Shown: positions 17,634-35,324 of the stretch, one piece after another
How the letters are laid out: every line of letters begins with the position of its first letter
Position numbering within the stretch: position 1 is the first letter of the stretch
DNA from: an uncultured Candidatus Saccharibacteria bacterium
GTDB lineage: Bacteria; Patescibacteriota; Kazan-3B-28; UBA10110
Direction: 5' to 3'
Length of the DNA stretch: 50,779 bases
Assembly: GCA_964424375.1 (NCBI GenBank)
Contig: CAYRIH010000001.1
Coordinates: 19,577-70,355 of the forward strand
The notes under the pieces: generated by a model
What the model was told of the DNA's origin: nothing
The model's input: the letters and a program-made list of their open reading frames with translations, nothing else
The model's database searches: none
Program-made: the position numbers and the translations under genes

Positions 17634-17819
17634 TTAAAAACCCGGCAGCATCGGTTGGGCTACTAAGTTTGTCCCCCACAATACAACATAAGGTCCAACT
17701 ACCTGAATAATTACTATGGCAATCAATATAACTGCCAACTGGCGCCAAAAAGAATTGGTAAAATCTCTTTGACGATAAGCTTCTTGCTTAAAATCTCTAA
17801 TAAATTGTCTAGACAACAT
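17634..17819 (-). CDS. small membrane protein
   Basis: 61 aa with one hydrophobic helix. Its start overlaps the stop of the upstream gene. Confidence 0.4.
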   Translation of the reverse strand: MLSRQFIRDFKQEAYRQRDFTNSFWRQLAVILIAIVIIQVVGPYVVLWGTNLVAQPMLPGF

Positions 17820-19096: not shown

Positions 19097-19141
19097 AGCA
19101 CAACGATAAAATATAAAACCTACTTTATATTATACCAATTT

Positions 19142-20527
19142 CTAGCCAGACTCTTCTATTGTAGCTGCTATTTCTGGAGCTATCTCTCTAGTAGTTTCTA
19201 ATGCCCTGAAAACCATTATTTCCGGCTGGAAGTATAGTTCAAACTGACCAATAGGACCATTACGATGCTTGGCTATAATAATATCAGCAATGTTAGTTCT
19301 ATCAGAATCTTTATCATAATAATCTTCTCGATAAATAAACACTACTACATCGGCATCTTGTTCAATCGAGCCACTTTCACGCAAGTCTGAAAGCTGAGGA
19401 GTGTGTTTAGGCCTTTTTTCTACCTCACGGGAAAGCTGAGAAACAGCAATGATTGGGATATTCAATTCTCTAGCTAAACCTTTAAGGCCTCTGGAAATCT
19501 CTGATATTTCCTGCACTCGACTTTCGGACGATCTTCTGCCTTCCATTAACTGCAGATAGTCAATAATTAACAAATCTAACCCTTTTTCTGATTGTAATCG
19601 CCTGGCTTTGGTGCGCATTTCCATTATATTAGTTCCCGGAGAATCATCGATATAAATCGCTGTTTCTGAAAGTGTGCTAATAGCATCACCAATTTTAGTA
19701 AAATCTTCCTCTTTTAAATTGCCTGTTCTAAGTCTCCAAGAATCTACCCCTGAAGAAGCACTAATTAATCTATCCGCTACCTGCTCCTTGGACATCTCTA
19801 AATGAAACATACCCACAGAGAAGCCCGCTGATGCCGCATTAAGAGCAAAGTTTAATACTAAACTAGTTTTACCCATGCTGGGACGAGCTGCCACTACAAT
19901 AAGATCAGATTTTTGCAAACCTGCCAAAGTATTATCCAAAGTTTTAAAGCCAGTAGGAATACCCCTCAACTCGCCTTTATGTTCATGTAGTTTATCAATG
20001 CGCTCAAAAGCTACTTCTAAAACTTCTTTAACAGGAACAAAGCTAGTTTTGAGATATTTTTGGGATACTGCAAATAATGTCCGCTCGGCCTTATCTAAAA
20101 GTTCATCAACTTCACTGGCTTGGTCTCGACCGAAGACTTCTATCTCGTTAGCGGCGGCAATTAAACGGCGTAAAGTAGCCTTGCTGGCTATAATTTCAGC
20201 ATATCGCGCCACATTGGCACTGCTGGGTAAACTGCCGGCCAACTCGGCTAAATAACTAGCTCCGCCAATAATTTCTAATTTCTTTTTATTCTTCAGCAAA
20301 TCCGTTACTATCACTACATCCAAGGGCCTTTGTTTGTCATACAAAGCAACCATGACATCAAAAACAATCCGATGGCGCTCTTCATAGAAATCCTCAGGTT
20401 TTAAAATATCTGCCACTTTAATCATGGCATCTTTATCCAATAACAAAGATCCCAGAAGAGATTTCTCGGCATCTATATTCTGGGGAGGCATAATTCCACC
20501 TGGAAATGTTTTGTTAGTCATAGTCAT
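19142..20527 (-). CDS. dnaB: replicative DNA helicase DnaB
   Basis: PPQNIDAEKSLLGSLL N-terminal motif, Walker A ARPSMGKTS, and IIDYLQLM. Confidence 0.93.
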   Translation of the reverse strand: MTMTNKTFPGGIMPPQNIDAEKSLLGSLLLDKDAMIKVADILKPEDFYEERHRIVFDVMVALYDKQRPLDVVIVTDLLKNKKKLEIIGGASYLAELAGSLPSSANVARYAEIIASKATLRRLIAAANEIEVFGRDQASEVDELLDKAERTLFAVSQKYLKTSFVPVKEVLEVAFERIDKLHEHKGELRGIPTGFKTLDNTLAGLQKSDLIVVAARPSMGKTSLVLNFALNAASAGFSVGMFHLEMSKEQVADRLISASSGVDSWRLRTGNLKEEDFTKIGDAISTLSETAIYIDDSPGTNIMEMRTKARRLQSEKGLDLLIIDYLQLMEGRRSSESRVQEISEISRGLKGLARELNIPIIAVSQLSREVEKRPKHTPQLSDLRESGSIEQDADVVVFIYREDYYDKDSDRTNIADIIIAKHRNGPIGQFELYFQPEIMVFRALETTREIAPEIAATIEESG

Positions 20528-23190: not shown

Positions 23191-23220
23191 TAACGGTTCT
23201 GCTGTACAGCAGAACCGTTA
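23191..23220. repeat. 30-bp perfect palindrome TAACGGTTCTGCTGTACAGCAGAACCGTTA
   Basis: Read directly. It overlaps the stop codon of 23218..23499. Sister copies are at 23519-23548 and 40340-40357. Confidence 0.9.
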
Positions 23221-23499
23221 AGATTTGAGACGATATTTTACATATTTACCGGTATCGCCAATCTGTTCTACTATCCCCTGTTTTTCTAATTCGTCTAAAT
23301 CGCGGGTGGCCTGAGCATCAGAAACTTTAGTTAATTCCTGATATTCATCATTAGTAATTTCTCTGTTCTTCTTTAAATAGTCCATCACCAATCGCTGCCG
23401 CTTAGCGATTGGATCTTCTATCACTGCTTTAGGCTTCAAAACAAGCCGCGCGATAACAAACCCTACAACAACCCCAATAAATAATTCTAAATAATCCAT
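23218..23499 (-). CDS. membrane-anchored winged-helix DNA-binding protein
   Basis: N-terminal TM helix followed by ITNDEYQELTKVSDAQATRDLDELEKQGIVEQIG, a wHTH pattern. Confidence 0.6.
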   Translation of the reverse strand: MDYLELFIGVVVGFVIARLVLKPKAVIEDPIAKRQRLVMDYLKKNREITNDEYQELTKVSDAQATRDLDELEKQGIVEQIGDTGKYVKYRLKS

Positions 23500-23518: not shown

Positions 23519-23548
23519 CAACAGTTCTGCTGTACAGCAGAACTGTTG
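23519..23548. repeat. 30-bp perfect palindrome CAACAGTTCTGCTGTACAGCAGAACTGTTG
   Basis: Read directly. It shares the same 20-nt core as 23191-23220. Confidence 0.9.
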
Positions 23549-23675
23549 AAATTTTAACCAATTTTCAGGTCAAAAGAGAACTGTCTCTTTGAGGCTTAAG
23601 ATGCTAAGACTAACTATTGACTTTTTATTATGATTTACTACACTAAGGGCGATCGAAAGATCGTTAATTTTAGAG

Positions 23676-24449
23676 CTAAAGGGCCTCGGCAACGGGGTCC
23701 TTTGTGCGTTCATTTAACTCTTTTTTCCAGCAAATAAAGTCCTTCAAATGAAAAATATCAAATATCCGAAGTCCTGCTTCTTTGAGTGCATTTAACTCCC
23801 TTGAAATTCTCCCTGCGGTGCCAAACAAGACAACTTTCTTGCCTGCCTTTAGTAATCTCTCTAAAGGATCAGCAAAATCACTATCGCCACTCCACAACAC
23901 AAAGGTTTCCGTCCCGTTTTTTTCATAATCCAAAAGCATATCAACACCAATCTCGACATCAAAATTGCACTTTCTATCCTCAATGTAATACTCTCCCTTC
24001 TTATTCATGTTTCTAAAACAATCATTCAAATATTCAATCGTTCCAACCTCATATTTTCGCAAAAGCGCACGGCGGATAAATTGATTAAGCAAAGCTGTAG
24101 AGTCCGCTGGAACACTTGAAGCAACAATCGGAAATCGTAAGATTTTTACAGGTTTTGTACGGACAACATATTTTTGATTTTCTATTTCTTTTATCTCTTT
24201 CTTCGATTGCTCGCTACCATCAAGATATCCATTATAGAAATTGACTGCTTCAATGGTATCAAAAGAGTCCAAAAGTTGTTTTAATCTTTTTAAATCAATG
24301 TGCCATCCGAGTTTATTACTCCACGGACGGACGTTAGCATAATCAATATAAATCCGCGTTGAAGCTCCAAAAACATCTTCTAGTTGTCTCACAACCACCT
24401 GTTTACTCTCTGCGGTCTGTTTAATTTTTTCTGTCTTTGGTATAAACAT
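23676..24449 (-). CDS. NYN-domain (LabA/DUF88-like PIN-fold) putative ribonuclease
   Basis: RIYIDYANV, CNFDVEIGVDM and LWSGDSDF acidic motifs. The start lies 4 nt after the KTSC gene stop. Confidence 0.8.
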   Translation of the reverse strand: MFIPKTEKIKQTAESKQVVVRQLEDVFGASTRIYIDYANVRPWSNKLGWHIDLKRLKQLLDSFDTIEAVNFYNGYLDGSEQSKKEIKEIENQKYVVRTKPVKILRFPIVASSVPADSTALLNQFIRRALLRKYEVGTIEYLNDCFRNMNKKGEYYIEDRKCNFDVEIGVDMLLDYEKNGTETFVLWSGDSDFADPLERLLKAGKKVVLFGTAGRISRELNALKEAGLRIFDIFHLKDFICWKKELNERTKDPVAEAL

Positions 24450-24453
24450 AAAA

Positions 24454-24666
24454 CTAGCCGACTTTTTGATATCGATAACTGTACTTAATATAATTGTTCA
24501 AAAATTGCCCTTTTGATATAGCACTCATTAGCCCTTGATATAAGTGCTCCGGCACATTGAAATACTGATATATATCATTGGAAGTAAACTCTATTTCTAA
24601 AGTAGCCGACTGTGAATTATAGCCGATTGAACGAATATTTGTTGATGTAACTGGCGTTCTGTGCAT
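24454..24666 (-). CDS. KTSC-domain protein
   Basis: 70 aa reading SSNIRSIGYNSQSATLEIEF...YQYFNVPEHLYQGLMSAISKGQFLNNYIK, the typical KTSC pattern. Confidence 0.75.
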   Translation of the reverse strand: MHRTPVTSTNIRSIGYNSQSATLEIEFTSNDIYQYFNVPEHLYQGLMSAISKGQFLNNYIKYSYRYQKVG

Positions 24667-24686
24667 AATAATATTCTATCCTTTAA

Positions 24687-27600
24687 TTAATCTCTTTCAA
24701 CAATTTTAATTTCTTCTGGAGTAAGATCGTAAAGTTTATAAACTAATTGGTTGATTTGTTTTTCGTATTCTTTGACTTCTTCCTTTTTTGCAGGATTTTT
24801 TAAATAATCGATGGATTTGGTAATTGCCAAGATCTTATCAACAAGGTGCTCTATTTGTTCCACGATGTCTTTGTTGGATGGTGTGATTGGAGGAATTAAA
24901 AGAGGTTCAAGAGCCTGAACACTGACGATTACATCACCCGTGCCAGTTTTAGGAGCTTTATCATAAAGCATTTGATTTCCCAATTTAGAATTCATAAACG
25001 CGCACAAATATTTCAACTCGCTGCCTGTCATAATACAAGTGCTATCCTGACAATACATACTTTCATTATCTAAACCAAAACGAAGCACGGAACCAATTCG
25101 TTTCCACACAACCTTCTCCTTCTTAAATTCATTTAGGTATTCATCTTTGGGATTGTTATCTAATTCAAGCCAGTGATGCTGACCTTCCCCAGTACTGTTT
25201 CTCGAATAACGACATTGTCCACGATTTTTTAGCTTTTCTTCATATTGCGTTAGGTGCTTTAATATCGCTGGAAACTTATTCAGTTCTCTGTGAAATCCAT
25301 ATTTTATCAATATCACCCACAATCCAGCCCATTCATAATCAAAGCGTTTAATATCCCTTCCGCGTAAAATCGGTTTTAAGATTTCTGCACTTCTGGGATC
25401 ATCCGCAACAAGACGATCACGGACTGCTGTATCGATGATAAACGCTTCATTCAGACCTGTTATGACACCACGATAAATATTTACATCCCACTCTTTCAAC
25501 GGTTTACCGATTCGTTCTATTTTTTCTTTTAAGTTCTGCTCAGCCTGATTACCGATAAACCAGGCATCTTCATTCATTTTCGGTAATATGTTTTTATTTT
25601 TATCTATAAAATCAGACAATACCGAATCTTTTACTTCAGTATTAAGTGTTACGCCTGACAACTGACCATAATTATTCCCTTTCTCAATGATAAGAATATT
25701 GGTATCAACTGTGGCAGTTTCGAAAATTCCCGGACCTAAATCAACTAATAAAAGAGGATTGTACGAATTGAAAAGTTTCCTGAGGCTTTTTCCATATCCG
25801 GCTCTCATCCATTTATTACTGGTGATAAAGCAAAGATGTCCGCCGGTTTTCAAAGTATTAATTCCGTTTTCATAAAAAAGAGAATAAATATCGCCAGTGC
25901 GTTCAAAGGATTTATACCCGCAGTTTTTATACATATCAGCCAATTTCCCACCATCTTTTTGAAGTTGAACATAAGGAGGATTACCAATAACCACATCAAA
26001 TCCTTTTTTATCTTCAAAAACATCAATAAATTCCAATTTCCATAGAAAAAATGGTTTTTCTTTTTTGGGATTGTGTAGATTATCTAAAACTTCTTTAATC
26101 TTTGCTTCTGCAAGGAATTTGTCACCCCAAGAAGCCAAATATTTTTCGCGGCTCTTTTGATTCAACATATTGGCTTTAGCTTCCTCATTTTTTCTTTGCG
26201 CCTCCAAATCCTGCTTCCGCTTTTCTAAGGCCAAACGAATCAACCAATCTTTTATATCATTTATTTCTTTTCGCTTTGCTTGTTTTTCTTTATCATCGTG
26301 AATATCAAAATACTCTTTGACGTTCTTTTTAAGTTCAATGATTTTCCTTTGTTTCTTCCTATCAACTAACAAAGCTGTTTGTTGCCCAGTATCTTCACCA
26401 TTATAAAATTTTACACCCTCAAATTCTTCCAAAAGCGAATTGCCACACATTAGCCGATAATCCAAGTTTGGAAGCGGCTCAATATCTTTTAATTCATAAT
26501 CAACTACTAACTGAAGCCAGAGCCGCAATTTGGCGATTTCAATCGCGCCCGGGTCAATGTCTACTCCATAGATACAATTTTGAATAGTTTCCTTTTTTAA
26601 TTCGTATTCTGTTTTTTTCGCAAGTTTTTTAGGATGAAGCATTCGCAAAAGCAGGCGCAGACGGACTATTTCATTAAGCATGCCAACCAAAAAAGCGCCA
26701 GAGCCACAAGCTGGATCACAAACCTTGATATTTTTCAAAAGCTCGTCCAATTCAATCACTTCACCTTCAAAGGCGGCAATAGATTTATTTTCACCTTCAC
26801 GTAAAAATTTAACATATTTTTCCGCCTTCTTTCGTCCAATTTTTGAAGCGGAATCAAGATAATTTATCAAACTTTCTTGGCACATATAATACACAATCTC
26901 TCGCGGGGTGTAATAAGTGCCTTTACCTTTACGTAAATTTTCTGACAGTAAATTTTCAAAGACCTTACCAAGCATTTCCGGATCAATCGCAATTTCTTTA
27001 TCATCCGGGCTTTCTTCTTCAACTGTAAAATTATAACGATCAAAGACTTCAAAAATCGCTTGGAAAATTTTGTCGTCAAGATAAATTGAGCTATCTCTCC
27101 AGTTGTATTCAGCTTCAAAAAGTCCGCCATTTAAAAATGGGATTCGACAATTAAAATCCTTAGAAAAACTGGGATCGACCGAATCACGACGAGGATTATT
27201 TAGGGCATTATAAAATAATTTTTCTAGATAATCATTAAAAAAATTATTTTTGCTATTTTTTGCTTCTCTAAAAAGATTGCTCAAAAAATTCTTATTACCC
27301 TCACCCCATTTGCCACCTTCTGGTACACCTAACCAACCCTTCTTTTGGACGAAATAGAGAAATACAATTTGGCCAAGCAGTTTTTTAGCAAAATTTTCCG
27401 TATTTAATTGGTTTTTTGAAGCTTCATTAAGAAAAGTGTGGTTTTTTGAAAGTTCGTCGAGCAAACTTTCAAAAAGCTTGTGATATTCTAAATAAAATTC
27501 TTTGGTGATTTTTTCAACCGAAAACGCATCTTGTATTTTTTCCAAACTAGAAAAATCACTATCATTGATCCTTTGTAAGAAAGTTTTGTTAGTGAATTCA

Positions 27601-28022
27601 CGACTTACAAAATAAGTAAATCGACGAAAGTTGCTCCACTGGCGGCGAGTGCCAATTGATTTTGGATATATTAACGAGAAACGAAAATTACCACTTGAAT
27701 CATGGAAAATAAAAATGGCGGCCGAATATTGTTGGTTCTCGGCAGATTTTAAGATGTTTTTAGCTTTTTCGTATTGGGCTTTTTTGCCAGCACGTTCAGA
27801 AAGCTCTTGTTTAACTTCAAAAGCACAGATAATAAGACTGTCACCATCAGAAAAATTTATTTCTCCAAGCTTTATACCATTTTTAAAATCATCATCACTA
27901 TAACGAGAATAGTTTTCTTCTTGCGCTATAAATTGTCGGTTTTTCTCACGGAAAAAGCGACCAAATTTAGCAACAGAAAAATCACTTATTACTTTTTCTA
28001 GAACTTGTTTAGCTTCGCTCAT
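24687..28022 (-). CDS. Eco57I/MmeI-like N6-adenine DNA methyltransferase with possible N-terminal PD-ExK nuclease and C-terminal specificity domain (type IIG/IIL-like)
   Basis: Motif I is VCDPACGSGAFL and motif IV is VIGNPPYVQL. Also present are FLNGGLFE, DPEMLGKVFENLL and TYYTPREIV. N-terminal D61-x7-E69-V-K71 resembles the MmeI-type nuclease motif. The start overlaps the helicase stop (ATGA). Confidence 0.85.
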   Translation of the reverse strand: MSEAKQVLEKVISDFSVAKFGRFFREKNRQFIAQEENYSRYSDDDFKNGIKLGEINFSDGDSLIICAFEVKQELSERAGKKAQYEKAKNILKSAENQQYSAAIFIFHDSSGNFRFSLIYPKSIGTRRQWSNFRRFTYFVSREFTNKTFLQRINDSDFSSLEKIQDAFSVEKITKEFYLEYHKLFESLLDELSKNHTFLNEASKNQLNTENFAKKLLGQIVFLYFVQKKGWLGVPEGGKWGEGNKNFLSNLFREAKNSKNNFFNDYLEKLFYNALNNPRRDSVDPSFSKDFNCRIPFLNGGLFEAEYNWRDSSIYLDDKIFQAIFEVFDRYNFTVEEESPDDKEIAIDPEMLGKVFENLLSENLRKGKGTYYTPREIVYYMCQESLINYLDSASKIGRKKAEKYVKFLREGENKSIAAFEGEVIELDELLKNIKVCDPACGSGAFLVGMLNEIVRLRLLLRMLHPKKLAKKTEYELKKETIQNCIYGVDIDPGAIEIAKLRLWLQLVVDYELKDIEPLPNLDYRLMCGNSLLEEFEGVKFYNGEDTGQQTALLVDRKKQRKIIELKKNVKEYFDIHDDKEKQAKRKEINDIKDWLIRLALEKRKQDLEAQRKNEEAKANMLNQKSREKYLASWGDKFLAEAKIKEVLDNLHNPKKEKPFFLWKLEFIDVFEDKKGFDVVIGNPPYVQLQKDGGKLADMYKNCGYKSFERTGDIYSLFYENGINTLKTGGHLCFITSNKWMRAGYGKSLRKLFNSYNPLLLVDLGPGIFETATVDTNILIIEKGNNYGQLSGVTLNTEVKDSVLSDFIDKNKNILPKMNEDAWFIGNQAEQNLKEKIERIGKPLKEWDVNIYRGVITGLNEAFIIDTAVRDRLVADDPRSAEILKPILRGRDIKRFDYEWAGLWVILIKYGFHRELNKFPAILKHLTQYEEKLKNRGQCRYSRNSTGEGQHHWLELDNNPKDEYLNEFKKEKVVWKRIGSVLRFGLDNESMYCQDSTCIMTGSELKYLCAFMNSKLGNQMLYDKAPKTGTGDVIVSVQALEPLLIPPITPSNKDIVEQIEHLVDKILAITKSIDYLKNPAKKEEVKEYEKQINQLVYKLYDLTPEEIKIVERD

Positions 28023-31000
28023 AGTTTTTTATTCTCTATAGCTATAATGATTTCCTTTTTATGATCTTTCTGCCGATTCTTTTCTTTAATTAAATAATCT
28101 TCGCCCAACTCATTTCTTAATTCCAAAATGTCTTTAATTAAATTCTCTTTAAAGTTACCAATCCGGCGCAAAGTATAATCTGCCAAAGTACCATAACTTA
28201 AAATATCTTCTTTTAGAGTGCGGAGGAAGCCTTTGCTTGGCATTAACTCTTCTTTAGTATTTTTAATTAGAAAGTCAAGGTTATTTAATGCTTTCATTTC
28301 CAGGCTCTGCTCGCTATTTGGACCCAAGCGATAATCTTTAAATTCTTGTATTGCATGGTAGGCTTCCCAGAACTGCCCCGTATTCCAATTAAGTGATTTT
28401 TCATCGGATGAACAAACAATTTTATCAAACACATCCTCAAATGTAGTCTGATATGGCTCGATCTTTTCTGCATCTGTCTTAACCCCACTTATATACAAAC
28501 GCCCTTTTTTGAAAAATACCAGAAGTTCGTTATTACGATATTTTTTAGCAACTTTAATGCGAGGTGGATAATTTTCAAGGCTTTCGATTAATTCGGGGTT
28601 CCTTTTTTTAATCTTCAAAAATTCTTTAAGGGCCTTAGTATAAAAACTTTCTTTTTCTTTTTCGTCTGGATTTTGCTGCACACGATTAAATAAACCAGCT
28701 GGAGTTGGCTCTTCGTCTATGTCAAAAATCTTTGAATCTTCACCAAGCGCGGTATGGATAAGAAACATTTTATTGGCAGCAATTTCGCGAGATTGCACCA
28801 GTTGAGCACCTTGTTCGGTTGGGAAAAAATTCACTATATAAAGCTTGTTAAAAACTTTTTTACTAATACGGTTGATGCGCCCAAGTCGCTGAATAACACG
28901 CACTGGATTCCAAGGAATGTCATAGTTGATAACCATGCCAGCTCTATTTAGATTAAAGCCTTCAGAAATCTTGTCTGAAGAAAGGAGGAGCATAAAATCA
29001 TTATTTTGATCTTTGTAAGAAGCATCAAAATTTTTGTTTATTTGATCAATTTTTGAACCTGATAAATTACCAGCAACAACCAACATTTTATCGCCATAAT
29101 GTTTTTCTAGTGCCTTTTCCAAATAGTGTACAGTATCAACATATTCGGTAAAGATAATAATTTTACGCTTGGGTTCACCATTGTTTGGCTTTTTAGCATA
29201 TTCTTTTTTGAGATGCTCAATCAGACAAATGGTCTTGGGATCATTTTTTACTAGATCTAATTTTGAAAGCTTAGCCAAAATTTCATCAAATAATTCAAGA
29301 TCGGATTGAATATCGGCAATAAACTGGTCTTTGAGTGTAAATGAATCTAATTTGTAACGTTTATGGTTTTTGGGATATTCTCCTTTATTTATCTTTTCTT
29401 CATATTCAAGCAGATATTTTTCAATTTCGTCAGCATCTAGTTCGTAAATTTTTTCCAAAAGAGCACGATCTAATATATACTCGCCGGTTTTATTGATAAA
29501 CTTCTGGCTATTTTCAGTTATTTTTTTGAAATTCTTAATACTTTGCTCAAATGATCCAAAGGAGCTTTCAAAACGCTTAACTAACAAGCGACGCATAAAA
29601 TCAAATAAGTTGCGCTGTTGTACAAATTGAAAATTCTCTTTTTCGGTTAATTTTTCTTCGCTGATTTTTTTTGCACCAACTTCGTACTCAAACGGACGAT
29701 AAATTGCACCTTGAAAACGGCTACCCTCGTCAGGATCACCAAAATAGTTTTCAAGTATTTCTGTATAGAAATCGGATTGCTCTTTGCTTAATTCAAAAAA
29801 CCATTCTTGAGGATTAGCTACTTCTGAGAGTTCTTTCACTTCATTCTTATAATCAGGATTATTTTGCAGATCTAAGCGATTACGTCGGATGGTCACTGGT
29901 TCAATTACATTTCTGATTTGTTTAGCAAGATAACGCGCTCTTTGCGCTACTTTTTTAAGATCAATTTTGTCTTCTTCAAATAACGCTTTGTAGTAATTTT
30001 GAGCTTTATTTTTTTTCATACCATCAGGTGAATTCCTATATTTCTTAATATAGCCAAGCCGATCAAAAACACCTTTAAACCCTTTGAATTGATCGACAAG
30101 ATTGCTTTCTAAGGTAATGGAAGATTTTTTGGGGGTAATAAACAACTTAAGAAGCGAAAGAATGTCGCCGGGACGATTATTAAACGGGGTAGCTGTTAGC
30201 AAAACAACTTGTTTATCTCGACAGATGTTTTTTAGAAGTTCGTAGTCCTTTGTGTCTTGATTTCTAAACCAATGAACCTCATCAATTATTACTATTTCAA
30301 TATCCTGAGTTTTTGCAATGAAATCATTCAGTTTGTCTAAATCACCACGTGACCACACCTCCCAATCATAAAGACCGAACTGTTCTTTGTACTTGTTCCA
30401 ACCAGAGTCTTTTTTCCTTGGGTCCCCCTTTATTCCAGGTGGGCAAATGATTACACCGCGTTTTTTAAGTTGTTTTGCTACAGCGCAAGCGATAATAGTT
30501 TTCCCCAAACCTACAACATCAGCAATTATAACTCCTTTATCTTTTTCCATTATGGTGAGTGCTTGCCCTACGGCATCGAGTTGATACCGGTACGGCGTAT
30601 AACCGTTTTCTTCTAAAGTTTTTATCAAAGAATCACTAATTTCCCCTTGCTTAAATGAATCTAGGTAAGTTTTTAATACCAAACAAAAAGCTTCAAATGG
30701 CGAGATATCTTTAATAAGTGTTTCTTTTTCAATTACTTCGACAAGTTTCTTTTTAGTGTCATCATATTCGGTGATTTTTACGGCTTCGTCCCAAAGATCA
30801 TCAAAATATTTTTCTGCATCATCAAATCCATAATCTCCAATCTCCACGTTAAATTCGTTCTGAGTGCAAAGACCAGCTTTTGTCAGATTGCTACTACCAG
30901 TTATGAATAAATTTTTTCTACCTACTTGGCTTTGCTCTAACTTAAAAAGGTATAGTTTGGCGTGATTAGGTTCATAGGTTTTGCGAATGATTAGTTTATC

Positions 31001-31354
31001 TTTTTGAATCAACTTAATGAAAAATTTCACTTGCTCATAAAACTCTTTAGTATCAAAATTTTCTGTATTTAGAGATTTCTTTACAGATTCAATAAATTTA
31101 TAAGTTTTTTCCTCGTCTGATAGTTGTTCGTTCTCGGAAAATTCAATCAACCCAAAATTAGAACGATCAATATTTAACCCCACCAAAACTTTAGTGATAA
31201 TTTTTGGGTTTGATTTTAATCCTTTATAAAGCTCTTTGATTCCAGAAAAATAAAAAAATCCGACAAGAAATTTTAATTCTTCGCTTTTTTTAATAAGTTC
31301 AAGCAAGCGCTCTTTTAAATCACCTGTCTCGTTGTTTGTTATAAAATTAGGCAT
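28019..31354 (-). CDS. SNF2/SF2 helicase with N-terminal phospholipase-D (HKD) nuclease domain
   Basis: The HKD-like motif is NHAKLYLF...ITGSSNLTKAGL. Helicase motif I is VVGLGKTI, motif II is IIDEVHWFRN, and motif III is LLTATPFNN. Motifs V and VI are SEGFNLNRAGMVINYD and QRLGRINR. Confidence 0.85.
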   Translation of the reverse strand: MPNFITNNETGDLKERLLELIKKSEELKFLVGFFYFSGIKELYKGLKSNPKIITKVLVGLNIDRSNFGLIEFSENEQLSDEEKTYKFIESVKKSLNTENFDTKEFYEQVKFFIKLIQKDKLIIRKTYEPNHAKLYLFKLEQSQVGRKNLFITGSSNLTKAGLCTQNEFNVEIGDYGFDDAEKYFDDLWDEAVKITEYDDTKKKLVEVIEKETLIKDISPFEAFCLVLKTYLDSFKQGEISDSLIKTLEENGYTPYRYQLDAVGQALTIMEKDKGVIIADVVGLGKTIIACAVAKQLKKRGVIICPPGIKGDPRKKDSGWNKYKEQFGLYDWEVWSRGDLDKLNDFIAKTQDIEIVIIDEVHWFRNQDTKDYELLKNICRDKQVVLLTATPFNNRPGDILSLLKLFITPKKSSITLESNLVDQFKGFKGVFDRLGYIKKYRNSPDGMKKNKAQNYYKALFEEDKIDLKKVAQRARYLAKQIRNVIEPVTIRRNRLDLQNNPDYKNEVKELSEVANPQEWFFELSKEQSDFYTEILENYFGDPDEGSRFQGAIYRPFEYEVGAKKISEEKLTEKENFQFVQQRNLFDFMRRLLVKRFESSFGSFEQSIKNFKKITENSQKFINKTGEYILDRALLEKIYELDADEIEKYLLEYEEKINKGEYPKNHKRYKLDSFTLKDQFIADIQSDLELFDEILAKLSKLDLVKNDPKTICLIEHLKKEYAKKPNNGEPKRKIIIFTEYVDTVHYLEKALEKHYGDKMLVVAGNLSGSKIDQINKNFDASYKDQNNDFMLLLSSDKISEGFNLNRAGMVINYDIPWNPVRVIQRLGRINRISKKVFNKLYIVNFFPTEQGAQLVQSREIAANKMFLIHTALGEDSKIFDIDEEPTPAGLFNRVQQNPDEKEKESFYTKALKEFLKIKKRNPELIESLENYPPRIKVAKKYRNNELLVFFKKGRLYISGVKTDAEKIEPYQTTFEDVFDKIVCSSDEKSLNWNTGQFWEAYHAIQEFKDYRLGPNSEQSLEMKALNNLDFLIKNTKEELMPSKGFLRTLKEDILSYGTLADYTLRRIGNFKENLIKDILELRNELGEDYLIKEKNRQKDHKKEIIIAIENKKL

Positions 31355-31386: not shown

Positions 31387-31457
31387 ATTATACCCTATTC
31401 GGATATTCAGGGCTCTGAAAAAGCATTATTTCTAAACGGCTCACCCATGAGCCGTTT
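31387..31457. repeat. degenerate copy of the island intergenic module (GGGTATAAT box plus AAACGGCTCA..TGAGCCGTTT hairpin)
   Basis: Reads attataccc ... ttcagggctctgaaaaagcattatttctaaacggctcacccatgagccgttt. Confidence 0.5.
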
Positions 31458-31639
31458 AAATTTTTGTCCTAACAAGCTTTCTTGTGAAAAGAAGCTGTTG
31501 AACAAAACCAAACAACGACCACACATCGCTGTCTGACATTTCTTCTATATGTTTCTGTATATCCGAGCTAAGATTCATGGCCGCATTATAGCAGCCCGAT
31601 AGTTATTCAAACAAAAAAGACACTCCGACATCTAGGGCG

Positions 31640-33535
31640 TTACACTAAAGACACATATCTTTTCAGCTCATTTATGTTGTTTGGTTTAGATTGCGCAGTA
31701 TAATCTAACTTTTTACAAACATCCATAATCTTTACAATAAATCTATCAAACTCCACCGTAGTCATCGAGATGTTCCCATCTGCATCTTTAATGCTTGTTT
31801 GCCATACAGAGCCGATATCAAGTGGCGGCTGAGGTCTGTGGCCACTAACATTAAAGATTTTATGATCTTGTTTTGTAATCCAACCAGCTCCAACTTCTGC
31901 TACAGCCCCCCATGAAGTAGCCATCTCATTACTGGTGATATAAAGTACTAATATTTTTTTATCAGAATAACTATCGACAAAAAAATCTCTTAAATAATCA
32001 AAAACACCCGTGACGGCTTCAGGAATTCGTGCTCCCTCATTATCACAATTAGTATAAATAATGTCTTCGTCTAAAAAACCATTAAACGAAAGCATCTTAT
32101 AAACAATGTCTGCCAACGGTTTATCCGCTAAAGTGTGACTGATAAGTATTTGTTTTTTCTGTGCGTCCACTTTTGTCTTCAAGCCAAGAAGAGGAAGTGC
32201 GGCATTCATTTCACTTTTGACAATTTTCTCAATATTTTCAATTTTTTTCTGTCCAATCAATTTTACAATTTTTCCAGCTGCAATTTGAGAAGCGACATTT
32301 CTATATTTATCCACTCTCTTTCTCAATTCCTCTTCATCATGTTTTTGACGTTCTTGTTTTCCCTCATCCCGAATCTTCTTAAGGTGATCAGCATAAATCT
32401 CTCGCATAGCCACAATACGTGGGAGTAAACTATTCCTAACGTGTCCAACAACAAATTGATACCTTGGATCTTCAGTCTTATAACCCTGCCGGTTACTTAA
32501 AGCCATATCAGGTAGTTCTGTTTCTTCAAAAAGATCAACATGGAGCTGACCCACTATATAAACCTCTGGAAGTCTATTTTTACCCACAAGAGGGATAATA
32601 TTATATTCACCAAGCTTGCCATTAGAAAGCAATGAAATAAAGTTATCCGGGAAATCGCCAGGATTTTTCTTTCTATCCCGAGTTGTTCTGTAAGCGCCTA
32701 TCCAACCTTTAATCTCCAAATTATATGGTTTTTCTTCTCCCTGTTTGTTTTTAAGAATTAATGAGGTAGTAATGGGCATCTCTGTCTTCAAAAGTTTCTC
32801 CTCGATATTTCCTTTTTTTGGTAATAGAGAATCAAAATGAACAGCAAGATGTTTATAATCCTCCCCTAAAGTTATTAAAGCACCTAGTCCTTGAACCATT
32901 TCTTTGTCAAATGAATCCACCGTGATCTCCGCGGCATCGGTGATGATATGAATTTTAAACTTTTCGTTTACGAGAGGAAAAATTTTTAAAAGATTTTTCT
33001 TAATTGCAGCAACAGTCTTATGCATTCCATATTGGGGATTTGTCATTACTATTGAGGTGCCTTTAGCAGAAACTCGTTCAAATTTTATAGCTTCGTCACT
33101 TAAAGGTTTTAATTGATGGTCTTTCCCAACATGACGAGATAAAACAAATCCAGATTTTTCTCCATTCTTTACAGTTATCACCAAAACATTCTCTGAAACT
33201 GCAAGAGCGGCTAGTTTGCCTATTCCCTTTCTACCAATTTTTCTACGACGCCCGTCTTCGGTGTAAGAGTCTTTTTCTGTAATACGAGTTTCAACCGCAA
33301 CATTTAAATATTTTTTTATATCCCCTGTTTGATATGACATTCCAGATCCATCATCTTCAACAATTATTTTATTCTTTTTCTGAATTATATAAACATTGGA
33401 CGCATTGGCATCATATGAGTTAGCTATAAGTTCTGCCAAAACAAAATAAATGTTTGTATACAAACTTGGTCCTAATAATTCTAAAATTCTTGGATTAATG
33501 TTGATTTTGTATTCGCGATCACTCGGTTTATTCAT
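31640..33535 (-). CDS. GHKL (HATPase_c_3/MORC-like) ATPase fused to a C-terminal TIR-like domain
   Basis: The N box is ELIANSYDA, the G1 box is EDDGSGMS and the G2 box is GRKGIGKLA. The last ~170 aa read ILISHTLADKPLADIVYKMLSFNGF...ILVLYITSNEMATSWGAVAEVGAGW, a TIR/DUF1863-like pattern. The start is set at the ATG that overlaps the dcm stop (ATGA at 33532-33535); the track ORF starts at 33619. Confidence 0.7.
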   Translation of the reverse strand: MNKPSDREYKININPRILELLGPSLYTNIYFVLAELIANSYDANASNVYIIQKKNKIIVEDDGSGMSYQTGDIKKYLNVAVETRITEKDSYTEDGRRRKIGRKGIGKLAALAVSENVLVITVKNGEKSGFVLSRHVGKDHQLKPLSDEAIKFERVSAKGTSIVMTNPQYGMHKTVAAIKKNLLKIFPLVNEKFKIHIITDAAEITVDSFDKEMVQGLGALITLGEDYKHLAVHFDSLLPKKGNIEEKLLKTEMPITTSLILKNKQGEEKPYNLEIKGWIGAYRTTRDRKKNPGDFPDNFISLLSNGKLGEYNIIPLVGKNRLPEVYIVGQLHVDLFEETELPDMALSNRQGYKTEDPRYQFVVGHVRNSLLPRIVAMREIYADHLKKIRDEGKQERQKHDEEELRKRVDKYRNVASQIAAGKIVKLIGQKKIENIEKIVKSEMNAALPLLGLKTKVDAQKKQILISHTLADKPLADIVYKMLSFNGFLDEDIIYTNCDNEGARIPEAVTGVFDYLRDFFVDSYSDKKILVLYITSNEMATSWGAVAEVGAGWITKQDHKIFNVSGHRPQPPLDIGSVWQTSIKDADGNISMTTVEFDRFIVKIMDVCKKLDYTAQSKPNNINELKRYVSLV

Positions 33536-34572
33536 AGGACGTTCATTACATGTTCTATAATAGTTTTCCCAATAACTTGACCTAATACAGGTGGCACCGC
33601 ATTCCCTATATGCCGACAAAGTTGTGTCATTGGCAAATCTCCAAATTCGTATGAAATCGGGAATGTCTGTAATAATGCGCCCTCTCTCAACGAGATTGCA
33701 CGATCTTGCTCGGGATGTCCAAATCGTCCAGAACCATAACTAGCAAACTGTGTCGTAATTGTAGGTGATACATTATCCCAACTCATACGCCCATATACAG
33801 AAGTATATGTTTGTCCACTATCTTTTTGATAACATGCAGGCAATATTTTTTTGGCCCAATCTTTCCATGATCCACCTGGTTTTGATTGCTTAATACGTTT
33901 TAAATTGATTGGAATCAAACTTTTTGCTTGATGCATTTTGTCTTCTTCATGCCTCTGCCCAGCTTTTAGACTTGGAAGTAGTTTTATGGTATCGCCTACC
34001 GTTACATAATTCTCTTTTGAGTGTGTTGTTTCTGGGACTTTAATATTCCCAAGTTTTGAAGCAAGTAAGATGAGTCTACTTCTGTTCTGTGGCACTCCAT
34101 AATCTGGAGCATAAACAACATCAAAATCAACTTTATATTTCATCTTTTTCAGTTGTGTCACAAAGTTCTTAAAAACATTAGTTTTAATTACTCCTCGAAC
34201 ATTCTCCATTGAAACCACTTCTGGTTTGATAATCTGAATTGCACGCACAAAATGATCTAGGAGGTTCCATCTCTCATCTTTTTCGTTATTGTGCAGTTTA
34301 TGTGTATGTGCCGAAAATGGTTGACACGGAGCACAACCGACAAGAACTTTAACGCCTGATTTCGAATATATATTTTTTAACTCCCTAAAATCATATGTTG
34401 AAACATCTGTCAGTATAAACTTGGCATTATTGTTTTTTTCATATGTGACAGCACATGATTTATCATTATCAAGACCAGCTAGAACATGAATACCCGCTTT
34501 TCTAAGCCCATAAGTCAGCCCACCAATTCCACTAAATAAGTCAATTGCCTCAATTTTTAATTTTTTTTTCAT
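33532..34572 (-). CDS. dcm: DNA (cytosine-5)-methyltransferase
   Basis: Motif I is DLFSGIGG, motif IV is GCAPCQPFS, motif VI is ENVRG, motif VIII is QNRSRL and motif X is GNAVPP. Confidence 0.93.
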   Translation of the reverse strand: MKKKLKIEAIDLFSGIGGLTYGLRKAGIHVLAGLDNDKSCAVTYEKNNNAKFILTDVSTYDFRELKNIYSKSGVKVLVGCAPCQPFSAHTHKLHNNEKDERWNLLDHFVRAIQIIKPEVVSMENVRGVIKTNVFKNFVTQLKKMKYKVDFDVVYAPDYGVPQNRSRLILLASKLGNIKVPETTHSKENYVTVGDTIKLLPSLKAGQRHEEDKMHQAKSLIPINLKRIKQSKPGGSWKDWAKKILPACYQKDSGQTYTSVYGRMSWDNVSPTITTQFASYGSGRFGHPEQDRAISLREGALLQTFPISYEFGDLPMTQLCRHIGNAVPPVLGQVIGKTIIEHVMNVL

Positions 34573-34681
34573 AAATCTATTTTACACAAACATCTCCTGC
34601 ATTATACCTTTTTTCCATTGCTTGGCTTGGGTGATTTGTTGTTGTTTTGATTTTATTAAATCATCGGGCAATAATACCTCA

Positions 34682-34758
34682 ATTATACCCTAAATTAAAA
34701 ACTAACTTTCAGAGCTATTTTTATCCTGTTTATTCAACGGCTCATCCATGAGCCGTTG
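34682..34758. repeat. island intergenic module, copy E1
   Basis: Reads attataccctaaattaaaaactaactttcagagctatttttatcctgtttattcaacggctcatccatgagccgttg. Confidence 0.85.
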
Positions 34759-34868
34759 AAACTTTTATCTTAATTTATACAAAAATCAAAAGTAAGCTGT
34801 AAAAACGCGGTCGTGTTTTTATAACTCATCCTAGAACTGTCTTTATCTTATTTATTGTTATCTATCTA

Positions 34869-35324
34869 CTATTTACACTGAAAATTATTGGTTATATAAA
34901 CAGCTACATATTGCTTCAATTCATCGAAAGAAGCACTCTTGTTCCTTGTTTTGTCGCTGACATAATATGCAATATCTTTTAACTTGAAACCCTCACTGGG
35001 AACCACATACTCATAACCATTTAGCTCCATAAAATATGCTAAAACCATAAAAGCCAGCCTTTTGTTGCCATTACTAAAAAGATGTCTTTCAATAATTGTC
35101 GTGAATAAATAAGCAGCTTTATCGAAAATAGTTGGATAATATTCATCATTTTTAATGAAATCTAAAAATGGGGTCATATTACCCTTATCCTCCTTGCGAT
35201 AATCAGGAAGAGGTTCATTATCAGAATCTACATCCAAGGTGACCTCTACCAATCTAAAAATAATGAAATGAACATCCTTCTCGGAAATATATTTAATTTC
35301 TTGAGAGTTCAGAAAGCTCGTCAT
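34869..35324 (-). CDS. doc: Doc (death-on-curing) family Fic-fold toxin
   Basis: Doc signature HLFSNGNKRLAF (HxFx[DN]GNKR). Confidence 0.85.
   Translation of the reverse strand: MTSFLNSQEIKYISEKDVHFIIFRLVEVTLDVDSDNEPLPDYRKEDKGNMTPFLDFIKNDEYYPTIFDKAAYLFTTIIERHLFSNGNKRLAFMVLAYFMELNGYEYVVPSEGFKLKDIAYYVSDKTRNKSASFDELKQYVAVYITNNFQCK

What the first reader, a model, noticed from the sequence alone, without database searches (positions are those of the whole stretch)
23676..31354. Four-gene operon: PLD-SNF2 helicase, MmeI/Eco57I-like methyltransferase, KTSC protein and NYN RNase as a candidate composite defence system
Seen in the sequence: two 1111-aa proteins overlap by ATGA at 28019-28022. The first fuses an HKD (phospholipase-D) nuclease motif to a complete SNF2-type helicase. 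The second has the DPACGSGAF and NPPY adenine-methyltransferase motifs, an N-terminal D-x7-E-x-K nuclease-like motif, and a long C-terminal specificity-like region. A 70-aa KTSC protein follows after 20 nt, and an NYN PIN-fold nuclease follows that after 4 nt. All four sit between one promoter region (31.36-31.40 kb) and the next terminator-like region.

Established knowledge: SNF2 helicase plus Eco57I-like methylase pairs occur in class 1 DISARM (drmD and drmMI), and PLD nucleases appear as DrmC. Here DrmA, DrmB (DUF1998) and all BREX markers are absent, and the PLD domain is fused to the helicase.

Inference: this is a helicase-driven, methylation-discriminating restriction module. It carries an appended KTSC-NYN pair that could act as a second, RNA-directed effector or sensor. 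I do not recognise that combination as a described system.
Basis: partly seen in the sequence, partly recalled or inferred. Interest (0 to 1): 0.75.

Follow-up and report, generated by a model that had tools for sequence, protein, structure and literature searches.

The report
Helicase–methylase restriction pair with hitchhiking RNase cassette
The four genes are real, but they are two separate units: a widespread, uncharacterised two-gene restriction-modification-like pair, and a small mobile two-gene RNase cassette that usually sits inside other restriction operons.

Summary
All four ORFs, their spacings and their domain calls are confirmed. They are not a conserved four-gene system.

**Helicase–methylase pair.** The PLD(HKD)-SNF2 helicase (HEL) and the Eco57I-type methyltransferase (MT) form a tightly linked pair. 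HEL is followed by an MT homologue in 21 of 23 informative loci from many phyla. Unrelated defence genes often sit between or after the two. HEL averages 74% identity. The first 165 residues of MT average 64%, the MTase core 38%, and the target-recognition end 30% or less. A confident model of that region matches no solved nuclease. The PLD domain on HEL is therefore the likely sole DNase.

**KTSC–NYN cassette.** It occurs in none of the other HEL/MT loci. It is an autonomous cassette of about 1.05 kb with no promoter of its own, and it is 70-76% identical in DNA across loci. Of 47 distinct loci, 23 are Type III operons (Mod…KTSC-NYN-Res), 4 are Type I, and 5 are other nuclease or helicase loci. 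Its 3' tail carries a conserved hairpin and a convergent antisense promoter.

**Best reading.** This is a Type III/ISP-like ATP-dependent restriction system hosting an "embedded" RNase module. The module may be a PrrC-like fail-safe or a toxin-antitoxin pair. The locus is a new variant of known kinds and of moderate interest.

The parts
28019..31354 (-). HEL: 1111-aa PLD(HKD)/NgoFVII-like nuclease fused to an SNF2-type ATPase. Predicted motor and nuclease subunit.
   Evidence: Pfam and PADLOC hits. About 6400 homologues, the best 120 at 70-89% identity across phyla. Motifs are conserved.
30785..31306 (-). PLD/HKD nuclease domain of HEL (about residues 17-190). It has a single HxK (H131, K133) plus GSSN (153-156).
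   Evidence: PLDc_2 hit at 114-188. RE_NgoFVII is annotated in homologues. The motif is conserved in homologues of 32-39% identity.
28850..30598 (-). SNF2-type ATPase core of HEL (about residues 253-835).
   Evidence: ResIII, SNF2-rel_dom and Helicase_C hits. Matches to solved SNF2/Rad54 structures. Walker A, DEVH and motif VI are present.
24687..28022 (-). MT: 1111-aa Eco57I/MmeI-type N6-adenine methyltransferase with a C-terminal TaqI_C-like target-recognition region. Its start overlaps the HEL stop (ATGA).
   Evidence: PADLOC REase_MTase_IIG model PDLC03596, 1e-222.
27528..28022 (-). Conserved N-terminal domain of MT (residues 1-165). It is not a recognisable nuclease and is proposed as the docking domain for HEL.
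   Evidence: It averages 64% identity against 38-39% for the rest of MT. It has no invariant acidic residues. The AF2 model has pLDDT 84 and no PDB neighbour.
24690..25622 (-). Hypervariable C-terminal specificity region of MT (residues 801-1111).
   Evidence: TaqI_C hit at 883-1022. Most homologues stop aligning at about residue 780. Identity is 30% or less where alignment is possible.
24454..24666 (-). KTSC-domain protein (70 aa), the first gene of the mobile cassette.
   Evidence: PF13619, 2.6e-23. Solved relatives are 8wiv (C-terminal arm of HerA in SIR2-HerA), 4rgi and 7x8c. It sits 2-9 nt upstream of NYN in 53 loci.
23676..24449 (-). NYN/LabA-like PIN-fold nuclease (257 aa), the second gene of the cassette.
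   Evidence: PF01936 hit. D36, D164, E166, D170, D174, D189 and D191 are invariant. The best structural match of the AF2 model is 2qip, a LabA-like protein, E 4.6e-8.
23650..23663 (-). Conserved 5-bp hairpin or palindrome (CGATC-TTTC-GATCG), 12 nt after the NYN stop codon.
   Evidence: 89.7% of cells are paired. All 5 pairs show a double change, and 0 of 500 shuffles reach this.
23617..23644 (+). Convergent (antisense) sigma-70-like promoter in the cassette tail: TTGACT-16-TACACT, pointing into the 3' end of NYN.
   Evidence: The same position scores 10/12 or better in 24 of 42 cassette tails, against 4.9% of shuffles.
31387..31392 (-). TATAAT -10 box upstream of HEL. Candidate promoter of the HEL-MT-KTSC-NYN unit.
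   Evidence: Read from the sequence. No good -35 box is present.
31433..31458 (.). 11-bp hairpin between the Dcm/HATPase_c_3 unit and HEL. It likely separates the two transcription units.

Best explanation
The locus holds two independent modules that are read as one transcript.

**Module 1 (HEL + MT)** is a two-subunit, ATP-dependent restriction-modification-like enzyme.
- MT recognises a DNA site through its variable C-terminal region and methylates adenine on host DNA.
- MT's conserved 165-aa N-terminal domain recruits HEL.
- On unmethylated DNA, HEL translocates with its SNF2 motor and cuts with its N-terminal PLD domain. That domain has one HKD half-site per chain, so it must pair with a second HEL.
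- Functionally this is a Type III/Type ISP-like arrangement, with a PLD nuclease in place of a PD-(D/E)xK nuclease.

**Module 2 (KTSC + NYN)** is a mobile cassette of about 1.05 kb without its own promoter. It depends on read-through from whichever restriction operon hosts it. It carries its own 3' hairpin and a convergent antisense promoter. It most likely encodes an RNase effector (NYN) kept in check by KTSC and/or the antisense RNA. In that reading it acts as a second-line, abortive-infection-type defence when the host restriction enzyme is challenged, like PrrC.

**Shown:** the gene linkage patterns, motif integrity, the conservation gradients and the cassette boundaries.
**Inferred:** the HEL-MT contact, the cleavage mode, the RNase targets and any coupling of the cassette to restriction.
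For: **Pairing of HEL and MT**
- An MT homologue follows HEL in 21 of 23 loci with enough downstream sequence. These span Patescibacteria, Smithella, Omnitrophota, Nitrospirota, Methylomirabilis, Armatimonadota, Gammaproteobacteria and a Parabacteroides plasmid.
- The two genes overlap by ATGA.
- Mean identity to the window is 74% for HEL, 64% for MT 1-165, 39% for MT 166-420, 38% for MT 421-800, and 30% or not alignable for the specificity region.
- HEL's catalytic motifs are intact and conserved. MT has no conserved nuclease motif or nuclease fold.
- HEL/MT loci host varied embedded genes: a DUF1016 PDDEXK nuclease, a SLFN/AlbA_2 ATPase, AbiEii, OLD, KAP NTPase plus trypsin, and TIR.

**The cassette**
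- DNA homology to about 45 loci starts at the KTSC start codon and ends 25-65 nt after the NYN stop. Nothing upstream is conserved.
- KTSC lies 2-9 nt upstream of NYN in 53 loci.
- Context of 47 distinct loci: 23 Type III, 4 Type I, 5 other defence, 3 beside recombinases, 7 other, 5 uninformative.
- NYN identity (62-83%) does not track the identity of the flanking Res (25-89%, rho 0.23) or Mod (rho -0.02).
- The NYN acidic residues are invariant and the fold matches a LabA-like structure.
- The tail hairpin and antisense promoter are conserved.

**Precedents in the literature**
- PrrC embedded in a Type Ic restriction system, and HEPN RNases embedded in restriction operons (PMC3710099).
Against: - No experiment exists for any of the four proteins.
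- PADLOC's best model for MT is a single-polypeptide Type IIG enzyme, so MT might cut DNA on its own through a non-canonical site.
- The only tested embedded NYN protein, HEC-09, gave no phage defence.
- Several KTSC-NYN copies sit in non-defence contexts, next to FtsZ, a subtilase or surface proteins. The KTSC-less sister clade is often next to housekeeping genes.
- The window's antisense promoter scores only 9/12.
- The hairpin is short and could equally be a protein-binding palindrome.
Confidence: 0.7

Rival explanations
1. One reading: all four genes form one dedicated composite defence system, in which KTSC-NYN is an obligatory sensor or effector of the helicase/methylase module.
For: - All four genes are on the same strand with spacers of 20 nt or less, and no terminator lies between them.
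- The same four-gene block recurs on three contigs from related samples.
Against: - Those three contigs are the same organism at 99.8-100% identity.
- None of about 23 other HEL/MT loci has KTSC or NYN.
- None of the 80 NYN loci has HEL or MT.
- The cassette's DNA homology ends exactly at its own borders.
Confidence: 0.05
2. KTSC-NYN is a generic toxin-antitoxin or addiction pair, with a PIN-like toxin after a small antitoxin as in VapBC. It stabilises genomic islands and has no functional link to restriction. Its enrichment in restriction operons only reflects that these operons tolerate insertions.
For: - The small gene comes first, the spacer is 2-9 nt, and the second gene is a PIN-fold nuclease.
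- The cassette also occurs next to recombinases and in non-defence settings.
- An antisense promoter suggests RNA-level control of a toxic gene.
- Restriction and helicase-methylase operons host many unrelated inserts.
Against: - 27 of 42 informative loci are Type I or Type III operons. In Type III loci the cassette almost always sits directly upstream of Res.
- No operator or promoter upstream of KTSC is conserved, which is unusual for an autoregulated type II toxin-antitoxin pair.
- No copy was found in the plasmid or viral collections.
Confidence: 0.3
3. MT is a self-sufficient Type IIG restriction-modification enzyme. HEL is a separate, SauUSI-like PLD-helicase restriction enzyme that merely lies next to it.
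For: - MT matches the PADLOC Type IIG model at 1e-222 over its full length.
- Stand-alone PLD-helicase anti-phage proteins exist as families (NF042964, PDLC02193).
Against: - HEL is linked to MT in 21 of 23 loci with a fixed order, and the two genes overlap by ATGA.
- The MT N-terminal domain is conserved together with HEL.
- MT has no conserved catalytic acidic residues and no nuclease fold.
- HEL scores far below the cut-offs of the stand-alone families: 91 against 1100 bits.
Confidence: 0.1
4. KTSC-NYN is an RNA-processing controller of its host operon. For example, it could cleave the polycistronic mRNA between mod and res to set the restriction-to-methylation ratio during establishment, by analogy with C-proteins of Type II systems.
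For: - In Type III loci the cassette is nearly always the last gene before Res, with a conserved hairpin and convergent promoter between NYN and Res.
Against: - In the window, in the Type I loci and in L045 and L060, the cassette lies after all restriction genes, so nothing lies downstream for it to control.
- There is no direct evidence for this role.
Confidence: 0.1

Closest known systems
Type III restriction-modification (EcoP15I-type Mod + Res) and Type ISP enzymes (LlaGI/LlaBIII). This comparison rests on my own knowledge.
   Same: A methyltransferase with a built-in specificity region is combined with an SF2 ATPase-nuclease. There is no separate S subunit. ATP-driven movement on DNA is predicted, with cleavage needing two enzymes to meet.
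   Different: - The nuclease is a PLD/HKD domain at the N-terminus of the motor, not a PD-(D/E)xK or Mrr domain.
- The motor is SNF2-like.
- The methyltransferase is gamma-class Eco57I/MmeI-type, not N6_N4_Mtase.
- The gene order is motor first.
- The proteins are split, unlike Type ISP.
Type IIG enzymes (MmeI, Eco57I, Cj0031-like)
   Same: MT has Eco57I, MmeI_Mtase and TaqI_C domains and matches the PADLOC Type IIG model strongly. A 2023 survey listed Cj0031-like genes with an adjacent PLD+SNF helicase gene (PMC9881135).
   Different: No conserved N-terminal nuclease motif or fold. An obligate helicase-nuclease partner is present.
Class 1 DISARM (DrmA, DrmB, DrmC, DrmD, DrmMI) and ARMADA
   Same: An SNF2 helicase (best PADLOC and NCBIfam hits are DrmD), an Eco57I-like adenine methylase (DrmMI hits) and a PLD nuclease.
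   Different: No DrmA/YprA helicase and no DUF1998 protein. The PLD domain is fused to the helicase. Scores are far below the family cut-offs: DrmD 150 against 610 bits.
BREX-related 'Type-2 BR' systems (HKD-Swi2/Snf2 helicase + DUF499 ATPase + DUF1156 methylase + DUF3780; PMC12839542)
   Same: The helicase has the same architecture, with an N-terminal HKD nuclease on a Swi2/Snf2 core, and is proposed there as the primary effector of a restriction-like system.
   Different: No DUF499 ATPase or DUF3780. The methylase belongs to a different family.
NgoAVII/CglI (PLD nuclease plus ATPase motor) and SauUSI (PLD-helicase Type IV enzyme). This comparison rests on my own knowledge.
   Same: A PLD-family nuclease whose DNA cleavage depends on an NTP-hydrolysing helicase-like motor.
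   Different: Those systems use a cytosine methylase with a separate B3-domain nuclease (NgoAVII/CglI), or target modified DNA with no methylase (SauUSI).
PrrC embedded in the EcoprrI Type Ic system, and HEPN RNases embedded in restriction operons (PMC3710099)
   Same: An RNase gene nested in and co-transcribed with an ATP-dependent restriction operon. This gives a model for a latent second-line effector.
   Different: NYN is a PIN-fold, metal-dependent nuclease, not an ABC-ATPase-HEPN protein. It comes with a KTSC partner and an antisense promoter. No activation mechanism is known.
Embedded defence candidates in Hma, BREX, DISARM and Type I systems, including HEC-09, an NYN protein (bioRxiv 10.1101/2024.01.29.577857)
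   Same: The same phenomenon: cassettes in the same orientation nested in helicase/methylase systems, including an NYN RNase.
   Different: HEC-09 is a single gene with an IF2B/5-like N-terminal domain. It matches the window's NYN only weakly, over the core (8e-6). KTSC pairing and Type III hosts are not described in the passages I read. HEC-09 showed no defence.

Membership tests
Type IIG restriction-modification enzyme | Gamma-class N6-adenine methyltransferase motifs plus a target-recognition domain in one chain | tested here: met
   DPACGSGAF at 436-444 and NPPY at 681-684. Eco57I, N6_Mtase and TaqI_C hits. PADLOC PDLC03596, 1e-222.
Type IIG restriction-modification enzyme | Catalytic endonuclease domain (PD-(D/E)xK) in the same chain | tested here: not met
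   D61, E69 and K71 are not conserved. No invariant acidic residue in residues 1-200. The AF2 model (pLDDT 84) has no PDB match at E <= 1e-3.
Type IIG restriction-modification enzyme | Acts as a single polypeptide without a motor partner | tested here: not met
   Paired with HEL in 21 of 23 loci, with an ATGA overlap. Actual activity was not testable here.
Class 1 DISARM | DrmA helicase and DrmB (DUF1998) present | tested here: not met
   No such domains in neighbours from 17.8 to 35.3 kb. No other ORF over 500 aa in the window.
Class 1 DISARM | DrmD and DrmMI equivalogs | tested here: not met
   NCBIfam DrmD scores 150.3 bits against a 610 cut-off. MT hits DrmMI models only in part.
BREX | PglZ and BrxC present, and a PglX-type methylase | tested here: not met
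   No PglZ or BrxC. PglX model scores 96.8 bits against a 500 cut-off.
Hma (helicase-methylase-ATPase) | HmaA helicase, HmaB methylase and HmaC ATPase | tested here: not met
   HEL matches HmaA only over its C-lobe (8.8e-27, residues 579-839). No ATPase gene is in the unit.
Type III restriction-modification | Mod of the N6_N4_Mtase family plus Res with a C-terminal PD-(D/E)xK nuclease | tested here: not met
   MT is Eco57I-type. The HEL nuclease is an N-terminal PLD domain. Only the functional layout is shared.
Type ISP | Nuclease, helicase, methylase and specificity region in one polypeptide | tested here: not met
   There are two genes. The nuclease is PLD, not Mrr-like.
PLD/HKD nuclease superfamily (HEL N-terminus) | HxK plus GSxN motif, conserved across homologues | tested here: met
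   NHAKLY at 130-135 and GSSNLT at 153-158, conserved in homologues of 32-39% identity. The Pfam score of 26.0 is just under the 27 cut-off. The canonical Asp position holds K138, as read from the sequence.
NYN/LabA-like PIN-fold nucleases | NYN fold with a conserved acidic active-site cluster | tested here: met
   PF01936 scores 54.6 bits against a 24.2 cut-off. D36, D164, E166, D170, D174, D189 and D191 are invariant in 24 sequences. Foldseek top hit is 2qip, E 4.6e-8, TM 0.73. RNase activity was not testable here.
PrrC/RloC anticodon nucleases | ABC-ATPase fused to a HEPN RNase | tested here: not met
   No ATPase or HEPN domain in KTSC or NYN. The resemblance is only in genomic logic.
Type II toxin-antitoxin (VapBC-like) | Toxin neutralised by direct binding of the upstream small protein, with autoregulated promoter | not testable with these tools
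   The gene order and spacing fit. No conserved upstream operator.

The most novel reading that the evidence does not exclude
KTSC-NYN is a previously undescribed, horizontally exchanged 'plug-in' RNase module. It inserts into the operons of translocating restriction enzymes: Type III, Type I and the PLD-SNF2/Eco57I-type pair seen here. It is expressed only by read-through from its host and is restrained by its own antisense RNA and/or KTSC. It fires as a PrrC-like fail-safe when the host restriction complex is inhibited or stalled. Separately, the HEL/MT pair would be a distinct class of two-subunit ATP-dependent restriction enzyme whose only nuclease is a PLD domain on an SNF2 motor.
Probability: 0.3. 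Interest if true: 0.7.

Novelty: new variant of a known kind. Interest (0 to 1): 0.5.

Why it matters
**The HEL/MT pair**
- Current tools would label this locus as a single-gene Type IIG enzyme and overlook its conserved helicase-nuclease partner.
- The HEL family has thousands of members across phyla.
- If the pair works as proposed, it is a common but uncharacterised architecture of ATP-dependent restriction. Its motor is highly conserved and its specificity region swaps freely, which could make it useful as a programmable methylase/nuclease pair.

**The KTSC-NYN cassette**
- It would be a compact, testable example of layered immunity beyond PrrC.
- The same 1-kb RNase module recurs inside three different kinds of translocating restriction system.
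- It has an apparent RNA-level brake.
- It is especially common in the small genomes of uncultivated Patescibacteria-type organisms.

Tried and rejected
- **Exact-sequence look-up of HEL:** not on record. A variant 99.8% identical (P0002) was used instead.
- **DISARM, BREX, Hma and Dpd membership:** rejected on scores below cut-off and missing partner genes.
- **MT N-terminal nuclease:** rejected on motif conservation and fold search.
- **Sequence search of NYN against solved structures:** no match. Only the fold search found the LabA-like 2qip.
- **Rfam:** nothing in the locus except a chance CrcZ hit (E 0.54). The only confident RNA in the window is tRNA-Gln.
- **NYN in other collections:** no match in plasmids or in viral contigs.
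- **Literature:** no paper holds both 'KTSC' and 'NYN'. The COG1002/COG0553 search was uninformative. The PADLOC web-server paper does not mention Hma.
- **An own sense promoter for the cassette:** the TTGAAA-16-TAGAAT match at 24700-24673 is not conserved in other loci.
- **Integron attC-like ends:** considered for the GTTATCC motif and dropped, because it does not fit GTTRRRY.
- **Organism name:** could not be obtained, because the clusters carry no names.
- **PADLOC model 'C3a139 HKD+Snf2':** its origin could not be traced.

Full report
**1. Observation**

- HEL is 28019-31354 (1111 aa).
- MT is 24687-28022 (1111 aa).
- KTSC is 24454-24666 (70 aa).
- NYN is 23676-24449 (257 aa).

The HEL stop and MT start overlap as ATGA. 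The MT-KTSC and KTSC-NYN spacers are 20 nt and 4 nt.

Pfam finds PLDc_2, SNF2-rel_dom, ResIII and Helicase_C in HEL. It finds Eco57I, N6_Mtase, MmeI_Mtase and TaqI_C in MT. It finds KTSC and NYN in the two small proteins.

The catalytic strings are present.
- HEL: H131-x-K133, GSSN 153-156, GLGKT 282-286, DEVH 358-361 and QRLGRINR 822-829.
- MT: DPACGSGAF 436-444 and NPPY 681-684.

A TATAAT box at about 31387-31392 follows an 11-bp hairpin at 31433-31458. That hairpin closes the upstream Dcm/HATPase_c_3 unit. The four genes are therefore plausibly one transcription unit. The scan found no canonical terminator after NYN.

**2. The helicase-methylase pair is a real, conserved unit**

HEL belongs to a very large and unusually conserved family. 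About 6400 proteins score E <= 1e-10. The best 120 are 70-89% identical although they come from very different phyla.

I examined gene neighbourhoods from exact-sequence look-ups. I also fetched 28 genome loci. Local tblastn and ORF maps covered all of them.
- An MT homologue follows HEL on the same strand in 21 of 23 loci that have enough downstream sequence.
- The exceptions are a Lentisphaerae locus, where only a 49-residue MT fragment survives, and one short contig.
- A more distant pair (32% identity) sits on a Parabacteroides distasonis plasmid.
- In about 40% of loci, one to three unrelated genes lie between HEL and MT, and other genes follow MT.
- These extra genes include a DUF1016/YhcG PDDEXK nuclease, a SLFN/AlbA_2-type ATPase, DUF3800, an ORF6N protein, AbiEii, OLD-family ATPase-TOPRIM proteins, KAP NTPase plus trypsin, and a TIR protein.

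Conservation falls steadily along the pair.

| Region | Mean identity to the window |
|---|---|
| HEL | 74% |
| MT 1-165 | 64% |
| MT 166-420 | 39% |
| MT 421-800 | 38% |
| MT 801-1111 | 30% or not alignable |

A constant motor-nuclease combined with a diversifying specificity region is the signature of a restriction-modification enzyme.

**3. MT has no supported nuclease**

A 60-sequence alignment of the N-terminal 414 residues has no invariant acidic residue in the first 200 positions. The invariant positions there are G53, R114, S116, R134, T147, F167 and F176.

An AlphaFold2 model of this region is confident (pLDDT 84). It has no Foldseek neighbour in the PDB at E <= 1e-3.

By contrast, the HxK and GSSN motifs of HEL are conserved even at 32-39% identity. 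I infer that the PLD domain of HEL is the DNase of the pair. I also infer that MT's highly conserved first 165 residues are the docking surface for HEL. Neither point was tested directly.

**4. KTSC-NYN is a separate mobile cassette**

No KTSC or NYN homologue is present in any other HEL/MT locus.

The NYN protein has about 1900 homologues, and the best 120 are 70-85% identical. Three look-ups placed it in other kinds of operon.
- A Type I operon: HsdR-HsdM-SduA_C-x-HsdS-KTSC-NYN.
- Two Type III operons, with the cassette between Mod and Res.

A metagenome scan returned 80 more loci. None contains HEL or MT. KTSC lies 2-9 nt upstream of NYN in 53 loci. That is essentially every member of the clade with 60% or more identity that has enough upstream sequence.

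I classified neighbours by clustering plus Pfam. The 47 distinct KTSC-NYN loci divide as follows.

| Context | Loci |
|---|---|
| Type III (Mod and/or Res adjacent, usually Mod…KTSC-NYN-Res) | 23 |
| Type I | 4 |
| Other nuclease or helicase genes (GmrSD-HNH with EcoRI methylase, UvrD-PDDEXK, SLFN helicase, DUF6602) | 5 |
| Next to recombinases | 3 |
| Other or unknown | 7 |
| Uninformative | 5 |

DNA homology between the window and about 45 loci is 69-77% (mostly 70-76%). It begins within about 14 nt of the KTSC start codon and ends 25-65 nt after the NYN stop. Nothing upstream of KTSC is conserved. The cassette therefore has no promoter of its own and relies on its host operon.

NYN identity between Type III loci (62-83%) is not correlated with the identity of the flanking Res (25-89%, Spearman 0.23) or Mod (rho -0.02). 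This fits cassette exchange between divergent hosts.

NYN keeps an invariant acidic cluster: D36, D164, E166, D170, D174, D189 and D191. Its model matches the LabA-like NYN structure 2qip (E 4.6e-8).

KTSC matches solved KTSC proteins and the C-terminal arm of HerA in the SIR2-HerA defence complex.

A sister NYN clade at 60% identity or less lacks KTSC. It is often next to housekeeping genes such as GroEL or a P-type ATPase, or inside Type I operons.

**5. A conserved non-coding tail**

Just after the NYN stop, the cassettes share three features.
- A 5-bp hairpin or palindrome (window 23650-23663). 89.7% of cells are paired and all five pairs show a compensatory change. No shuffle out of 500 reaches this.
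- On the opposite strand, a near-consensus TTGACT-N16-18-TATAAT promoter that points back into NYN. It scores 10/12 or better in 24 of 42 tails, against 4.9% of shuffles. The window copy is TTGACT-16-TACACT at 23617-23644.
- In many copies, the exact DnaA-box string TTATCCACA just outside the -35 box. The window copy is degenerate.

I read the first two features as evidence for an antisense RNA that restrains NYN. No transcript data exist to confirm this.

**6. How this window was assembled**

The Dcm methylase and the HATPase_c_3 protein just upstream of HEL have clear homologues in contig L074 (E 2.6e-152 and 1.3e-261). There they are followed directly by KTSC-NYN and then a Res-type helicase.

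The small winged-helix gene after NYN in the window has homologues that follow Res in L078.

The window therefore looks like a defence island in the order Fic, Dcm, GHKL ATPase, HEL, MT, KTSC, NYN, wHTH. In it, the HEL-MT pair lies between a GHKL/Dcm unit and the cassette. The island sits next to dnaX and dnaB.

**7. Mechanism proposed**

- Shown: linkage, order, overlap, motif integrity, conservation gradient, cassette borders and contexts.
- Inferred for the pair:
  - MT reads a site through its variable C-terminal region and methylates adenine.
  - On unmethylated DNA it recruits HEL through its N-terminal domain.
  - HEL moves along the DNA using ATP.
  - Two single-HKD PLD domains must then come together to cut.
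- Inferred for the cassette:
  - NYN is an RNase co-expressed with the host restriction genes.
  - It is held back by KTSC and/or the antisense RNA.
  - It acts either as a PrrC-like second line of defence or as a toxin-antitoxin-type module.

**8. Comparison with known systems**

- A 2023 survey listed Cj0031-like Type II restriction-modification genes with an adjacent PLD+SNF helicase gene, without functional study (PMC9881135).
- HKD-Swi2/Snf2 helicases have been proposed as effectors in DUF499/DUF1156 'Type-2 BR' systems (PMC12839542).
- DISARM, ARMADA, BREX and Hma all fail their membership tests here.
- RNases nested in restriction operons are an established idea (PrrC and HEPN families; PMC3710099).
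- Defence genes nested in helicase/methylase systems are also an established idea. The examples include an NYN protein, HEC-09, that showed no defence (bioRxiv 10.1101/2024.01.29.577857).
- I found no paper that mentions KTSC together with NYN.

**9. Verdict**

The four-gene 'composite system' is not a conserved entity. What is present is an uncharacterised but widespread two-subunit restriction-like enzyme that hosts an undescribed mobile RNase cassette. Both are new variants of known kinds. Interest is moderate (0.5). The main value lies in the cassette's recurrent embedding in three classes of translocating restriction systems, and in recognising that this 'Type IIG' family works with a PLD-SNF2 partner.

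Noticed in passing
window 23611-23675; loci L039-L094 downstream of NYN: The cassette's 3' tail is conserved as DNA even where the reading frame ends early. It carries the string GGGGCCCC..AGCTCTAGA, a 5-bp hairpin, and a convergent TTGACT-N16-18-TATAAT promoter on the opposite strand. This suggests an antisense RNA against NYN.
   Followed up: partly
loci L052, L056, L061, L066, L070, L071, L073, L075, L081, L085, L088, L091, L094, about 60-70 nt after the NYN stop; window 23600-23612 (degenerate copy): An exact DnaA-box consensus (TTATCCACA) lies just outside the -35 box of the antisense promoter in many cassettes. In Type III loci it lies about 15-30 nt before the Res start codon. Its role is unexplained.
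   Followed up: no
window 31640-35324 (minus strand); L074 1-2793: A C5-cytosine methylase, a 631-659-aa HATPase_c_3 (MORC-like GHKL) protein and a Fic protein lie upstream of HEL. In L074 the homologous Dcm-GHKL pair is followed directly by KTSC-NYN and a Res-type helicase. The window's cassette may therefore have been associated first with that unit.
   Followed up: partly
window 23520-23547: A perfect 28-nt palindrome (AACAGTTCTGCTGTACAGCAGAACTGTT) lies just upstream of the 93-aa winged-helix gene at 23218-23499. Homologues of that gene follow Res in L078. An AT-rich hairpin (AAAGAGA-CAGT-TCTCTTT) lies at about 23574-23593.
   Followed up: no
L004/L005 (Lentisphaerae) 11333-19321: Here HEL is followed by a SLFN/AlbA_2-type ATPase, a 49-residue remnant of the MT N-terminus, an AAA_15-DUF3226 pair, a DUF6577-AbiEii pair and a protein of over 1900 aa. 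This looks like a decayed or remodelled HEL/MT locus turned into an insertion hotspot.
   Followed up: partly
proteins P0291, P0346, P0270, P0331: The MT N-terminal region (Pfam DUF7814 in some homologues) also occurs as stand-alone proteins of 420-470 aa on long contigs, for example the Dehalococcoides 'putative type IIS restriction' protein. The docking domain and the methylase may sometimes be separate genes.
   Followed up: no
L095-L124: A sister clade of the NYN protein (54-60% identity) has no KTSC partner. It lies next to housekeeping genes (GroEL, P-type ATPase), or directly after HsdM inside Type I operons (L107, L110, L124).
   Followed up: partly
L060 8836-10627: A truncated second NYN copy (205 aa) lies immediately upstream of an intact KTSC-NYN cassette, after Res. 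This looks like a tandem insertion or a remnant of cassette replacement.
   Followed up: no
window 8001-10000 and 39001-43000: G+C content rises to 0.43-0.45 against about 0.35 elsewhere. Rfam finds no rRNA there. I did not examine these regions.
   Followed up: no
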